Positions 2,610 to 57,180 of a stretch of 64,000 bases of DNA are shown one piece after another; the stretch's first letter is position 1, and each line of letters opens with the position of its first letter. Location of the stretch: the NCBI GenBank assembly GCA_964016885.1, contig OZ024744.1:61318001-61382000 (forward strand), read 5' to 3'. A model generated the notes under the pieces. The model worked only from the letters and a program-made list of their open reading frames with translations. It did no database searches and had not been told where the DNA came from. The position numbers were made by a program, and so were the translations under genes. This stretch comes from Eledone cirrhosa (lineage: Eukaryota).

Positions 2610-2812
2610 TTTTTTATTTTATAGAAGGAGCTTCTACAGGACTAGTACTGTTTCATTCAGATGAAATCTTCAGGCGCTTCCTGAAGATTTCATCTGAATG
2701 AAACAGTACTAGTCCTGTAGAAGCTCCTTCTATAAAATAAAAAATTTTTACTCTGCCATGTATTGAGTACCTTACTTACTGTGGTTATCCCCGACTCAAC
2801 CCGGGACCTACG
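2609..2812 (+). mobile_element. Short PLE pLTR-like fragment with a fold-back palindrome and a hammerhead ribozyme
   Basis: Inverted arms ~2609-2674 and ~2680-2745 with a 5-nt spacer. Homologous to 2940-3075 on the minus strand. Embedded in (TA)n. Confidence 0.7.
2676..2724 (+). ncRNA. Type I hammerhead ribozyme (family HH-2)
   Basis: GCUUC-CUGAAGA-uUUCAucUGAAu-GAAA-CAG(uacuaguc)CUG-UA|GAAGC: stems I and III pair and the core is intact. Confidence 0.7.
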
Positions 2813-2935: not shown

Positions 2936-3022
2936 GTTTATTCCGAGTTCAAATGGGGGTAACCACAGTAAGTGAAGTACTCAATACATAGCAGAGGATA
3001 AATATTTAATTAATATACAAAT

Positions 3023-3074
3023 GGCTTCTACAGGACTAGAACTGTTTCATTCGCGAGAAATCATCAGGAAAGCC
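3023..3074 (-). ncRNA. Type I hammerhead ribozyme (family HH-2, second copy)
   Basis: Minus strand reads GGCUUUC-CUGAUGA-uUUCucgcGAAu-GAAA-CAG(uucuaguc)CUG-UA|GAAGCC. Confidence 0.65.
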
Positions 3075-3094
3075 CCCCCCCCCACATACACACA

Positions 3095-3654: not shown

Positions 3655-3694
<40 letters not shown>

Positions 3695-3821
3695 GGTTAA
3701 ACAAGGTTCAATGAATAAAGTTTCACAATAGATTAGAAGCATTCCACAATAAAATGGTTTTCTGGAGTTATTAATATTAATTCAAAATATTAACAAATAT
3801 AGACATTCATGTGATCAAGTA

Positions 3822-3888
3822 TATTTTATTATACATATTTCAGAGGTACTGAGCTATTTTCAACAGTACGTCCTCATCAGATAAAATA
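3822..3888 (-). ncRNA. Type I hammerhead ribozyme (family HH-1)
   Basis: Reverse complement of 4069-4135. Confidence 0.8.
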
Positions 3889-4068
3889 GGTTGATTCTTG
3901 ACATACCTTGACTATGTTGATGGTTAAAATTCAGTCATGGCAGTGAATTAGTTATGACAAAACTCAATATATAAATATTGAGTTTTGTTATAAATATTGT
4001 CATAACTAATTCACTGCCATGACTGAATTTTAACCATCAACATAGTCAAGGTATGTCAAGAAACAACC

Positions 4069-4135
4069 TATTTTATCTGATGAGGACGTACTGTTGAAAA
4101 TAGCTCAGTACCTCTGAAATATGTATAATAAAATA
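4069..4135 (+). ncRNA. Type I hammerhead ribozyme (family HH-1)
   Basis: UAUUUUAU-CUGAUGA-GGAcGUACUG(12-nt loop)CAGUACcUCU-GAAA-UAUGUAU-A|AUAAAAUA, with self-complementary stem III AUAUGUAU. Predicted cleavage after 4127. Confidence 0.85.
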
Positions 4136-4262
4136 TACTTGATCACATGAATGTCTATATTTGTTAATATTTTGAATTAATATTAATAACTCCAGAAAAC
4201 CATTTTATTGTGGAGTGCTTCTAATCTATTGTGAAACTTTATTCATTGAACCTTGTTTAACC

Positions 4263-4301
<39 letters not shown>

Positions 4302-9121: not shown

Positions 9122-9198
9122 TGAAATATGTATAATAAAATATACTTGATCACATGAATGTCTATATTTGTTAATATTTTGAATATTTTGAATTAATA
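9122..9198 (+). mobile_element. Short PLE pLTR fragment (3' half of HH-1 and downstream sequence)
   Basis: Matches 4115-4180. Confidence 0.75.
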
Positions 9199-9355
9199 TA
9201 TATATATATATATATAAGTCGAGTTATCCTGTTGTGAGCAATGCTAAGTCAGGTGACCATGTCTTGCTCATATAGAACTGATCCTGGTTTCGTTTCTACA
9301 GATAGATGCCTTTCCTAACACCAACCTCATTTATAGTGAGTACTGGGTACTTATA

Positions 9356-52233: not shown

Positions 52234-52292
<59 letters not shown>

Positions 52293-52333
52293 TTCAAAAT
52301 ATTAACAAAAATAGAACTTCTTGTGATCAAGTA

Positions 52334-52400
52334 TATTTTATTATACATATTTCGGAGGTACTGGGCTAACTTCAACAGTACGTCCTCATCAGATAAAATA
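52334..52400 (-). ncRNA. Type I hammerhead ribozyme (HH-1) with a canonical G10.1-C11.1 pair
   Basis: UAUUUUAU-CUGAUGA-GGAcGUACUG(uugaaguuagcc)CAGUACcUCC-GAAA-UAUGUAU-A|AUAAAAUA. Confidence 0.88.
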
Positions 52401-54406
52401 AGATGATGTATGACATACCCTGACATAGTATATGGTTAAGATCCAGTCATGGTAGTGAGTAAGATATGACAAAACTCAATATTTATATACCTTAAGATTG
52501 AGACATGAAAAAACTTACATATAATACAGAGGGTGCATGTGAGAAAGCTTAAAAATACATAACACCAATTTACATAACTGTTAGAGATTCAAATAATTTA
52601 AATTATTGAAGAAAGAGGAAAGAAAAAAAAGAAAGACAGAGAGAAAACAGATGAGGGGAAAATATAGCTAGTAGAGGTATAGAGAGCAACAGAGAATTGA
52701 TCAAGGAAAGAGAGACAAAGAGGAATAATTATAGGGAGGGATGAATTATATATATCTATACATAACTATACATTTGGGCATAGCTTTGCGAAAGAGTAAA
52801 CTCGAATCTTTGAATTATTGAATTATCTAGAAGTATTCATCAATCTAAATCCTAAATATAACTGGGTGTAATTATATGAAGGTTAATTTCCAGTCCTTAG
52901 TTAATTAGTTATATATACTATCCAAACGTATCCGGTTGACCGTTAACTTTCAAATCATTTAAGTTAGTTCAGAGTAATGAATTAATCAAAGTGTATAATA
53001 TTTCAGGCTATAAAAGTTTATAAATATCTGTATTAATATTAAAGTATACTATCATAGTTAATTTATAAAATCATATTTTATGAAATCATATTTAAACTAT
53101 TTGCAAACATGAGAAAGAAGCATAATATTTTCATCCTCACGAAGGTAATTCTTATTAAATTTTATTATATTATATTTAATTATTTATATTATATTGAAGA
53201 TAATTCGCATTATATAATTTATAAAATAATTACAGTTATAATTTTAAAAATTAAGATTAACAATTAGAATGCCTTAAAGCATCAAAAGGCCTTATAATTA
53301 AACTTAAAAAAGTTTATTATTAAATTAGATATATGCATTTGTCTAAATATAAACAAAGATTATATTGTCTAAAGATTATCAGTTATATATAACAAAATAT
53401 AATACAATAAATAAGTTACTGATAATATTGTTAAAAATTAAGGTTTTAGATCAATTATTATAATAAGGTCATGTAATACATATATACTATAAATATACAA
53501 GTCAAACTTCATGAATCATAAGGATAAGAGTCAGATTCAAAATAAAAAAATGAATTGTTTGCGATCTTTAAAATGCCCAATATCCAAGCTATATAGTTTA
53601 AAAATACAAGAACATTTTTTAAAAATTTATTTATATAGTAGTATAATGAGAAAGAGAAAACCTAAAGATTTCATTGACCCGAAGGTAACCCGAATTTAAT
53701 TAAATAAAATAAAATAATAATCGTTATATAACTTAGAAAATATTTAGAAAATAGTTAACGATTACAACACTAGAAAGTCATTAAAGTATCTAAAGTACTT
53801 ATACGTGTAAATGTAACTAGAAGCATGTTATTATACTAGATATACAGATTTGTTCAAATATAAATAGAGTATTCCAGATATTAGTGATCGATATACATAT
53901 AATAAATAATTGTTTCTACTTTAGGCACAAGGCCAGCAATTACCCAGTGCATTACTGGTACTTTATTTTATCGACATATAATAAATAATAAGTAGAATCA
54001 TTGTTAGTAATGTTATAATTGAAGTTTTACATCAAGTTAAGTGGGGAAAAAAATATAAATCAAACTTCGTGAATCGTAAAACATACTCCAAATGAATAAA
54101 TATACAAAAACATAAATGCATGAATGATTTACGGTACATTATAACTGTTAAGGATATAAGCCATATATTAAAAAAATATACAAAGAATCCCAATCAAAAT
54201 TAAATATATCTAAACAATCAAATGATATGCACATTCCTCGAGAGATCATGTTAACAAATAATATGTTTATATACCTAAACATGACCCTTTAATCTAACAT
54301 TAATCATATCATAAATGAATAAAAAAAAAAAATTATTAAAGTTTTATAATCTGTTATAACGTTTTAGGTACACAGTTGATAAGAGACGTCAAAAATTAGA
54401 ACCTGT

Positions 54407-56768
54407 TTATTTAGCGTTTTTCCTGACTTTTTGCGAGGGTTGGAATGTAGACAAAGCTTTATGAAGGCAGTTTGAGAATAATTCACTTTTTTTGTTAATT
54501 AAATTTTCATAATTAGTAATTATTAAAAGGGTCTCCATGGTACAGAGGTTGTAGTTAGGTGATATTGAAGAATTCAAGTAAATTCTACTATTACACAACT
54601 TCGTCCAAGAAATCGAGTATTTTAAATTTTTGTCTTTTAATGACCATATAAGTTGTGATAAAGAAGTCGAAGATTTCCTATTAGGATTCAAAAAAGAGCA
54701 TTTGTGGTTCGTAAATCTTGATTTAAATGTCGAAGAAGTTGCACCAATATAGTTGTATGTGATGTTATTTGCTTTTACAGTGCATTTATATACCAGATTG
54801 CTATCCAGACAATTATTTTGCAGAGGGAAATCTGGTCTATTTCTACAATTACATTTCGATTTATAAATTGTACTATTTACATTAACATTATTAGTACTCC
54901 GAAATGTTCTATTGATTGTAATGTTATTGTTATTCCTAGTATTAATATTGCTAGTGATATTATATTCATTATCGTTAAATGTATGTTGATTATAATTTAG
55001 AATTCTACTATTTATTTTAGCGATGTTCTGGGCCATATTCATAGTTGTAGAATAAGAAAGCTTAATTGTGTGTCTGTTAAATATGGAACGGTGTTTAAGT
55101 TGAATGGGGAAGGATTTATCTAAAGCTTTAAAGAATAGATTTTTGAGTGGAGTTTTTATTGCTACAGAAGCCGGGGGGGGGGGGGGGCATATAACTGATT
55201 TAGTTCTGATTTTTTTCCCAGATTTATTCACGGTACTGGTGTTTGTATTATCATTTTTAGAATCTCGTTTATATATGTTATATATGTTATTCTTATTTTT
55301 ATCAGGATTATAATTCAAATTATTATTATCTATATATTCTATATTATTTTTATAACCTGCTTTTCGTAGCGCGTCATTATAATATCCTGCTTTTTCCTCA
55401 AATATGGATTTATTAGCGGATATTCTAGTTATGCGTTTCTGTACACTATTGACTATTGCGTTTTTCACTGATTTAGGGTGATTAGAGTAATAGCTAACGT
55501 AGTTTAAGTTTTCATTGGGCTTATGGAAAGGGTAATAAAATCCTGAGTTTAAGTTAAGGGTAACGTCAAGGAAATTAACTATTTTGGTACTATTTTCAAC
55601 TTCTAATTTAAGGTCGTAATTTTTAAAGAAGTCAATTATAGTTTTCTTAACCCCATTTAGTTCTGTATTGCTATGTTTGACAACCGTAAATAAAATATCG
55701 TCCCTATATAAACCACCTGTAATCTCCGGTAGTTTTCTATTTACCATATTTAAGATGAAAATCCCCAGAAGATCCGTGACTTGCGCTGAGTCCGATGATC
55801 CCATGGTAATGTCAAAGTTTCTATTCCTATCTGAACGGGTCCAATATTCATTGTTGAAATTAATTAGAGTTCTTCTAGCAGTTAATATGATATCGATTTC
55901 ATCCGTAGTTAGATCTGTATGTTTGTAAGCATAAGATAAAGCCTTATTGAATAGGTTAAGTGTAATAGAAGAATAATAGCTTGCTATGTCCATTTGGATG
56001 AATTTGTGATTTTTCTTATTATCTATATTTTTAAACCAGTCAATCACTTCATTAGTGTCCTTCCATAAGCTCAATTTAGACTTCAATTTCAGAGTAGGTA
56101 GAATTCTATCAATAATATTCTTACTGATTACTCCAATATCCGATTTAGATGGAGCAATCAGTCTAACTGGCAGGTCTTCCTCAAAGTTTCTTTTGTGATC
56201 CTTAAAATTTATCCACGGCTGTCTAGGTATAAAAGGTTCAGTTCTTCCTTCAATTCCAAATTTTGCTATTAATTTAAATGAATCATTATTGATGTCTGTA
56301 AGATCTTCGGCTGGGGCTTTTCTATAATTTTTCCTTAGTTCTTTTAAAATCAAGTCATTATATTCATCTTTATCTATCCCATATAAATTGTTGGTTTTGT
56401 CAGACTTCACTAATATTTTATTAACTTTTTTTATATCCAAGATTTTTTCTTTAAGAGTTCTAAGGTATTGGTGACCTCTATATGGATTTTTCCTGAATTT
56501 AATTTTCTTTAGTATATTGAGCATTTCTGTTTCAAAATCCTCCAAGAGTTTGTTGTATGGAGGATTTTTTCTGGATTTAGGATTTAAAGATAGTTTCGAA
56601 ATAATTGCTGTTGGCTTTCCTTTTAGCTTCTTTATTATCGAAATGAAATGCATGCCATCTCACTCTTCTTATAAAAGAGTTTGTTTGCTCTATAAGTTTC
56701 CTCATCTATTCTTCATTAGATGGTATAGGTATATCTTTGAGAGATGTCGGGAATATGAAGAATTGCAT
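54407..56768 (-). pseudogene. PLE reverse transcriptase-GIY-YIG endonuclease; true N-terminus likely at 56768, with a stop and a frameshift before the 748-aa frame
   Basis: From 56768: MQFFIFPTSLKDIPIPSNEE*MRKLIEQTNSFIRRVRWHAFHF. Main frame: KSDKT, FKDHK, MDIASYYSSI, MGSSDSA, GLYRDD, NFLDVTL, CNC, LVY, YIG. Confidence 0.9.
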
Positions 56769-57180
56769 TATTTATTAAATTTACAATCTATTGTATAGAA
56801 AAGCGCTCAACCTGCTGGGAGCTAGTTATATTTTAGTTCAATGAATAAATCAAAGAATGAGTTTTACAATAGATTGGAAGCACTCAACAGAAATGGTTTT
56901 CCGGAGTTACTAATATTAATTCAAAATATTAACAAAAATAGAACTTCTTGTGATCAAGTATATTTTATTATTTCAGGACGTACTGTTGAAGATAGCTCAG
57001 TACCTCTGAAATATGTATAATAAAATATACTTGATCACAAGAAGTTCTATTTTTGTTAATATTTTGAATTAATATTAATAACTCCAGAAAACCATTTTAT
57101 TGTGGAGTGCTTCCAATCTATTGTAAAACTCATTCTTTTATTTATTCATTGAACCTTGTTTAACCTTTAAAAATACATAT

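What the first reader, a model, noticed from the sequence alone, without database searches (positions are those of the whole stretch)
52288..57170. Penelope-like element whose 5' end coincides with its own hammerhead cleavage site
Seen: the 3' pLTR carries a complete hammerhead (52334-52400, minus). The upstream direct repeat of the pLTR matches only up to 56971, 3 nt beyond the predicted scissile bond (56968/56969). After that an inverted pLTR (56975-57170) begins in the middle of the ribozyme. Known: PLE pLTRs encode hammerheads thought to process the transposition RNA. Inference: this copy records reverse transcription running to the ribozyme-generated 5' end, followed by a template switch that made the inverted pLTR. 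That would be genomic evidence that HH-1 cleaves in vivo.
Basis: partly seen in the sequence, partly recalled or inferred. Interest (0 to 1): 0.8.

Follow-up and report, generated by a model that had tools for sequence, protein, structure and literature searches.

The report
Retrotransposon copy starting at ribozyme cut
This dead Penelope-like jumping gene begins within three bases of the predicted cut site of its own hammerhead ribozyme, and a small excess of related copies begin there too, so the ribozyme likely cuts the element's RNA in living cells, although most copies were made from uncut RNA.

Summary
Observation confirmed. This is a broken Hydra-type Penelope-like element with a dimer-type hammerhead at 52334-52400. 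The 5' direct repeat stops 3 nt past the predicted cut, and an inverted pLTR starts at -45.

The junction is more complex than described. Its 6 nt are hammerhead-core sequence from 5' of the cut, and the inverted arm carries other family alleles, so it likely came from a second RNA.

In the window, 1 of 7 truncated 5' ends lies at the cut. In RAD reads of three samples, 82-87% of depth crosses the cut, but two further loci start at -2 and +1. In animal DNA from another assembly, 3 of 43 breakpoints lie exactly at +1 (0.5 expected, P=0.012) and 5 at +1/+2 (P=0.003). With a +/-3 window P=0.16, and I could not replicate the test. A larger class (13 of 43) starts just upstream of the intact ribozyme, as an earlier scan note saw in shark DNA.

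Verdict: cut RNA is likely a minority template, and this copy is about an even bet to be one. Cleavage itself is untested.

The parts
52235..52287 (.). (TA)n tract, insertion target at the element's short 3' end
52286..52489 (-). 3' pLTR; ends at about +55 relative to the cut
   Evidence: matches sister copies at 3774-4183 and 12430-12587
52334..52400 (-). type I hammerhead, dimer type (2-bp palindromic stem III); predicted cut 52342|52341
52490..54406 (-). long AT-rich 3' spacer (about 1.9 kb), holding a short host repeat near 53905-53975
54407..56768 (-). RT plus C-terminal nuclease ORF of Hydra type; broken by one stop and one frameshift in the first 70 codons
56836..56971 (-). 5' direct pLTR, truncated at -3 (true end anywhere from -3 to +1 because ATA is shared)
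56969..56974 (-). 6-nt junction GAAATA = core -12..-7; equals a 6-nt loss abutting the cut, or a snap-back copy from the inverted arm
56975..57170 (+). inverted pLTR from -45 across the uncut bond to the long 3' end; sister-subfamily alleles
   Evidence: table 3
57155..57170 (+). 3' tail shared with sister copies at 4252, 3705 and 12807, absent from the body's 5' UTR
3678..4279 (.). sister insertion: two head-to-head pLTRs with intact hammerheads, 5' ends at -159 and -148
9122..9200 (+). sister solo fragment starting at -12 (G of GAAA)
12455..12830 (.). sister head-to-head insertion, 5' ends at -114 and -50

Best explanation
This is a dead Hydra-type Penelope-like element whose body begins 0-3 nt from its hammerhead's predicted cut and is joined head-to-head to an inverted pLTR that likely came from a second RNA; the body's cDNA most likely ran off an RNA end made by the ribozyme. 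Proposed steps: (1, inferred) the element's nuclease nicks both strands of a (TA)n site and two cDNAs start, one on a long RNA and one on a sister-subfamily RNA. (2, inferred) cDNA 1 copies the body and stops at the RNA's 5' end at +1. (3, arm shown, stop inferred) cDNA 2 crosses an uncut hammerhead and stops at -45. (4, predicted) its 3' end folds back on the stem II complement and adds GAAATA. (5, inferred) the two 3' ends join with 0-3 nt of ATA overlap. At family level, cut RNA is likely a minority template; most copies derive from uncut RNA.
For: Junction: every base is templated under this model. The filler plus flank gives an 8-nt match to the inverted arm's own sequence, reached by 1.2% of random fillers, or 3.1% if both strands of both copies are allowed. 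The cDNA 2 end is predicted to form the stem II hairpin (-5.8 kcal/mol; -12.6 with the junction). If cDNA 1 had held -9..-4, an in-register join without the 6-nt loss would have been available (inference).

Two templates: the arms differ at 8 substitutions and one indel, and 4 of the 8 are among the 40 listed common variants in reads. Arms of another palindromic PLE in the window are 99% identical. The Anolis PLE protein nicks and extends both strands and is predicted to be a dimer (PMC11167929).

Cut-site class: 3 of 43 breakpoints at +1 in three families and 5 at +1/+2; none at -4..-1. Three of 7 in ORF-linked Hydra-type families. RAD loci at -2 and +1 in all three raw-read runs; the depth step matches their sum (149 vs 149, 172 vs 168, 193 vs 195). 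The stronger stem II has only 3 of 43 ends at its foot.
Against: Only 1 of 7 truncated 5' ends in the window is at the cut, and 82-87% of RAD depth crosses it.

The statistics are thin. With a +/-3 window P=0.16, and without the discovery case 2 of 42 at +1 gives P=0.08. The +1/+2 window and the Hydra subset were chosen after seeing data, and post-hoc 2-nt windows on other landmarks also reach 5. One +2 case is a fold-back on a natural palindrome at +2..+9. A first, faulty filter kept 14 rows and gave P=0.04-0.2.

+1 is also the inner end of stem I, so a structural stall cannot be separated from a cut. The monomer is not predicted to fold as a hammerhead (-7.0 vs -11.4 kcal/mol). In Anolis no RNA reads began or ended at the cut, and ribozyme mutants inserted normally in vitro (PMC11167929).
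Confidence: 0.5

Rival explanations
1. Uncut template with slippage. The strand was copied across an uncut hammerhead, slipped 6 nt between the two ATA repeats flanking stem III, and switched arms at the foot of stem II (-12). Closeness to the cut comes from the ribozyme's own symmetry.
For: It also explains every base: the loss can be placed -9..-4 through -6..-1. The sister copy at 9123 starts at exactly -12. The arms are identical for the first 61 nt, as fold-back copying would give. Most templates are uncut.
Against: It needs an extra rare slip exactly there. No such deletion is among the 12 listed indels in reads (50 not shown). It does not explain the +1 starts in other loci.
Confidence: 0.33
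2. Structural stall without cleavage. Reverse transcriptase falls off at the inner end of stem I on entering the folded three-way junction, which coincides with +1.
For: Ten of 43 ends lie in +1..+10, roughly the span of stem I's 3' strand (4.8 expected, P=0.02). PLE hammerheads cleave poorly in vitro (PMC4209133).
Against: Stem II is longer and richer in GC yet has only 3 of 43 ends at its foot. The edge at +1 is sharp, with none at -4..-1.
Confidence: 0.12
3. Two separate insertions, or an assembly artefact. The inverted arm landed later next to an older body and removed its original 5' end, or the palindrome is a misassembly.
For: The arms come from different subfamilies, there is no target-site duplication, and the right flank is a 5'-cut host repeat. 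The junction itself was not checked against reads.
Against: Three of 4 family insertions in the window are head-to-head, a known single-event PLE anatomy (PMC3846280, PMC8557442). A read-through artefact would give identical arms, not family alleles.
Confidence: 0.05

Closest known systems
Hydra-clade PLEs (Craig et al. 2021, PMC8557442), including Hydra-1_Obim of Octopus bimaculoides
   Same: C-terminal nuclease, RWK-like and DKT motifs, CxC-x5-C linker, (TA)n target, hammerhead in the pLTR, inverted 5'-truncated copy at the 5' end
   Different: A different family: its hammerhead and protein differ from Hydra-1_Obim as printed in the supplement. It is 4.7 kb because of a 1.9-kb 3' spacer; Hydra elements are described as under 3 kb. 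The passages read report no breakpoint at the cut.
Adineta vaga Penelope insertions with inverted pLTR and tail (Arkhipova et al. 2013, PMC3846280)
   Same: [quoted passage not shown]
   Different: Explained there by self-priming, with no link to a ribozyme. Here the arm comes from another subfamily and the junction sits on the hammerhead.
Anolis Poseidon PAc (Frangieh et al. 2024, PMC11167929)
   Same: hammerhead in the pLTR, two 3' ends (tail), AT-rich target, both strands nicked and extended
   Different: Its ribozyme cuts only with the protein, is dispensable in vitro, and no RNA reads mark its cut. Genomic 5' ends at the cut are not reported in the parts read.
R2 retrotransposon HDV-like ribozyme (Eickbush et al. 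2013, PMC3774820, abstract)
   Same: Works alike: the ribozyme cut sets the template's 5' end, and junctions then form by chance microhomology
   Different: Different ribozyme and element class. In R2 the cut is the rule and is shown in vitro; here it is a minority class, inferred from DNA.

Membership tests
Hydra-clade PLE | RT followed by a C-terminal GIY-YIG-type nuclease | tested here: met
   35-37% identity over the length to intact homologues with this order; Pfam gave no hit for this copy
Hydra-clade PLE | N-terminal RWK motif | tested here: inconclusive
   reads RWH in the frameshifted N-terminus; homologue consensus is RWK
Hydra-clade PLE | DKG changed to DKT | tested here: met
   KSDKTNN
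Hydra-clade PLE | CxC-x5-C linker | tested here: inconclusive
   CNCRNRPDF: first two Cys present, third is Phe in this dead copy; near-invariant Cys in homologues
Hydra-clade PLE | (TA)n target and hammerhead in the pLTR | tested here: met
Hydra-clade PLE | placement in the clade by RT phylogeny | not tested
   no tree built with reference Hydra sequences
Hydra-clade PLE | generally short (<3 kb) | tested here: not met
   4.7 kb with a long 3' spacer; a tendency in the paper, not a diagnostic
Type I dimer-type PLE hammerhead | core CUGANGA / GAAA / NUH with stems I and II | tested here: met
   intact in 4 window copies
Type I dimer-type PLE hammerhead | short palindromic stem III allowing a dimer | tested here: met
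   self-duplex predicted, -2.2 to -4.2 kcal/mol
Type I dimer-type PLE hammerhead | self-cleavage | not testable with these tools
   no RNA holder listed; needs a bench assay
R2-like ribozyme-defined 5' junction | most full-length 5' junctions set by the cut | tested here: not met
   1 of 7 in the window; 5 of 43 in G001; 82-87% of RAD depth crosses the cut

The most novel reading that the evidence does not exclude
PLE hammerheads cut in the germline and the 5'-OH product is reverse-transcribed and inserted. About one in ten 5'-truncated pLTR copies starts at the scissile bond, across phyla, which makes genomes a fossil record of in vivo ribozyme cleavage. This locus further records two different RNAs, one cut and one uncut, copied at one site and joined by a snap-back on stem II.
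Probability: 0.5. Interest if true: 0.78.

Novelty: new variant of a known kind. Interest (0 to 1): 0.58.

Why it matters
Whether the hammerheads in Penelope-like elements cut in vivo, and what for, is stated as open in PMC4209133, PMC8557442 and PMC11167929. A peak of genomic 5' ends at the scissile bond is a readout that needs only assemblies, and it can be run on any animal genome. It suggests the ribozyme is not needed for transposition but does trim some templates. The two-template junction also bears on how PLE inverted repeats form.

Tried and rejected
No source of many family copies with flanks was found. No whole genome is held for the window. The family pattern found 0 stretches in metagenome contigs. 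The protein found no relatives in viral contigs. Earlier-scan look-ups by place, by sequence and by Hydra words were blank.

No RNA holder was listed; this says nothing on expression.

The 85 related loci outside G001 were mostly collapsed short-read contigs. They gave one usable breakpoint (-44) from 78 hammerheads.

The first rule-based filter compared rows with themselves and used a chance-level threshold. It was replaced; both results are reported. A planned replication set from G001 was not obtained, so the enrichment is unreplicated.

The largest loose end in the RAD reads (4069, start of stem I; 565/456/436 reads) was not counted as a breakpoint. Its consensus resembles diverged family sequence (agreement 0.5-0.6).

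Rejected readings: the Naiad clade (nuclease is C-terminal here); identity with Hydra-1_Obim; the Rfam microRNA hits on the palindrome, all below gathering scores; random filler at the junction (1-5%).

Full report
THE ELEMENT. On the minus strand the window holds a 4.9-kb insertion between a (TA)n tract at 52235-52287 and position 57170. Its ORF (54407-56768) is 35-37% identical over its length to intact RT-nuclease proteins, with one stop and one frameshift near the start. It has DKT, an RWK-like motif and a degenerate CxC-x5-C linker, which match the Hydra clade (PMC8557442, section 11). It is not Hydra-1_Obim, and no tree was built. The host is likely a cephalopod, inferred from an Argonauta homologue and from repeats I recall as octopus-like (no call).

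A type I hammerhead lies at 52334-52400, with a predicted cut at 52342|52341. The 5' direct repeat is identical to the 3' pLTR over 59 of 59 nt and stops at 56971, 3 nt 5' of the cut equivalent. The inverted pLTR starts at -45. Stem III is 2 bp with a palindromic loop. The monomer's hammerhead fold is predicted at -7.0 kcal/mol against -11.4 for the best fold, and the loop can self-pair. This is the dimer type, which cleaves weakly in vitro (PMC4209133).

First, the 6 nt between the arms read GAAATA, the core sequence -12..-7. With its flank this is an 8-nt match to the inverted arm's own sequence. Random fillers reach that in 1.2% of 200,000 trials, in 3.1% if both strands of both copies are allowed, and in 5.4% for the 6-nt match to the 3' pLTR. 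Seen as a deletion, the missing 6 nt can be placed from -9..-4 to -6..-1, so the loss both abuts the cut and lies between two ATA repeats. Second, the inverted arm crosses the bond uncut. It differs from the 3' pLTR at 3 of 99 positions, and from the direct copy at 5 positions plus a 2-nt indel in 138 columns, none in the first 61. Four of these 8 substitutions are among the 40 listed common variants in reads (174 not shown). The arm therefore likely came from a sister-subfamily template. For comparison, the arms of another palindromic PLE in the window are 99% identical.

TEST 1, THE WINDOW. Seven truncated family copies start at -159, -148, -114, -50, -45, -12 and -3. One of 7 is at the cut.

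TEST 2, READS. I laid one contig run and three RAD runs (4 of the 7 listed) on a sister pLTR, 4000-4268, whose cut is 4127|4128. Of the depth just 3' of the cut, 82-87% continues 5' of it. The step at the cut comes from two stacks seen in all three RAD runs. One is a loose end at 4126 (-2; 107, 125 and 148 reads, one sequence). The other is an opposite-strand joint 4128/4145 (77, 105 and 86 reads, 2 starts). The tool does not print the joint's orientation. The depth drop equals the loose end plus 7/9 of the joint reads (149 vs 149, 172 vs 168, 193 vs 195), which places that arm's 5' end at +1. These are two loci, the number of loci sampled is unknown, and 338 loose-end rows were not shown.

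TEST 3, RELATIVES. The assembly G001 holds animal DNA rich in hammerhead pLTRs. I read 120 stretches, 1.42 of 12 Mb, chosen for hammerhead or repeat hits and not at random. They gave 103 reference hammerheads in 41 families and 156 copy rows. Of these, 58 were reference-limited or began at or before -125, and 6 were at contig ends. Between -60 and +30 a rule-based filter kept 43 rows and dropped 21 as nested, diverged or duplicate. Three start exactly at +1, in three families (0.48 expected, P=0.012). Five start at +1/+2 (0.96 expected, P=0.0026) and none at -4..-1. In families linked to a Hydra-type ORF the count is 3 of 7.

The +1/+2 window and the Hydra subset are post hoc, and other landmarks also give post-hoc windows of 5. 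One +2 case is centred on a natural palindrome, and a few kept rows are doubtful or count both members of a pair. An earlier faulty filter kept 14 rows with P=0.04-0.2. No replication set was obtained. The largest class, 13 of 43, starts just upstream of the intact ribozyme, and 3 start at the foot of stem II. A second hammerhead family in the window also starts just upstream of its core in 3 of 3 copies.

MECHANISM. Shown: the anatomy, the allele differences and the breakpoint counts. Inferred: two cDNAs primed at one (TA)n site, as the Anolis PLE protein nicks and extends both strands (PMC11167929). One copies the body to an RNA end at +1. The other crosses an uncut hammerhead, stops at -45, folds back on the stem II complement (predicted) and adds GAAATA. 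The two ends then join at 0-3 nt of ATA. The out-of-register join suggests the body cDNA lacked -9..-4. I give this 0.5. Slippage on uncut RNA with a switch at stem II gets 0.33, since the sister at 9123 starts at -12. A structural stall at the inner end of stem I gets 0.12, and separate insertions or misassembly 0.05. The junction itself was not checked against reads.

LITERATURE. Inverted pLTRs, palindromic junctions and tails are known (PMC3846280, passages; PMC8557442, passages, section 11 and supplement rows). Hammerhead function in these elements is called unclear there. [quoted passage not shown] PMC11167929 found no RNA reads at the cut and no need for cleavage in vitro (parts 1-2 of 4); I did not see its Fig. 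S2 on genomic ends, which may bear on novelty. R2 is the working analogue (PMC3774820, abstract). I also saw passages of PMC6765202 and PMC7229834, and part 1 of 5 of bioRxiv 2026.07.22.740005. Eight searches listed no paper that, by title or abstract start, reports PLE genomic 5' ends at the hammerhead cut. Lunse 2016 was not held, and Arkhipova 2006 and 2017 were not read.

VERDICT. The element is an ordinary dead Hydra-type PLE. The junction is real, but ambiguous on its own. The population signal, a small sharp excess of 5' ends at the scissile bond in two unrelated animals, is the part worth pursuing. It makes the open question of in vivo cleavage testable from assemblies alone.

Noticed in passing
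window 18831-23228: A second Hydra-type PLE forms a large head-to-head palindrome with 99% identical arms (734 and 801 nt) that run about 850 nt beyond the element's (TA)n end, so flanking DNA was duplicated in inverted form.
   Followed up: partly
window 2610-2812 and 2940-3080: Another hammerhead pLTR family: a palindromic pair and a solo copy in (TA)n, all three starting a few nt before the catalytic core.
   Followed up: partly
window 57155-57170, 4252, 3705, 12807: The tail at the long 3' end of four sister arms is not found in the 5' UTR of this element's body, which diverges at 56836; unexplained.
   Followed up: no
run X1 laid on window 4000-4268: A contig joint goes back from 4130 to 4069 with 19 letters between (depth 138), i.e. 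a short tandem hammerhead repeat of about 80 nt that could allow a dimer.
   Followed up: no
G001, G002 and other loci L078-L092: Several prokaryote genome records hold animal-type Hydra PLEs and many hammerheads; G001 appears to be largely host DNA.
   Followed up: partly
G001 loci L151-L210, L352-L411: Thirteen of 43 5' ends fall in the 15 nt before stem I up to the core start, a larger class than the cut-site class; cause unknown, perhaps a transcription start.
   Followed up: partly
window 56790-56900; L086:6730-6770: A short GCTC/ACTC...GAGC/GAGT stem near the long 3' end recurs in this element (twice) and in a distant relative; a candidate protein-binding or initiation element, seen by eye only.
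   Followed up: no
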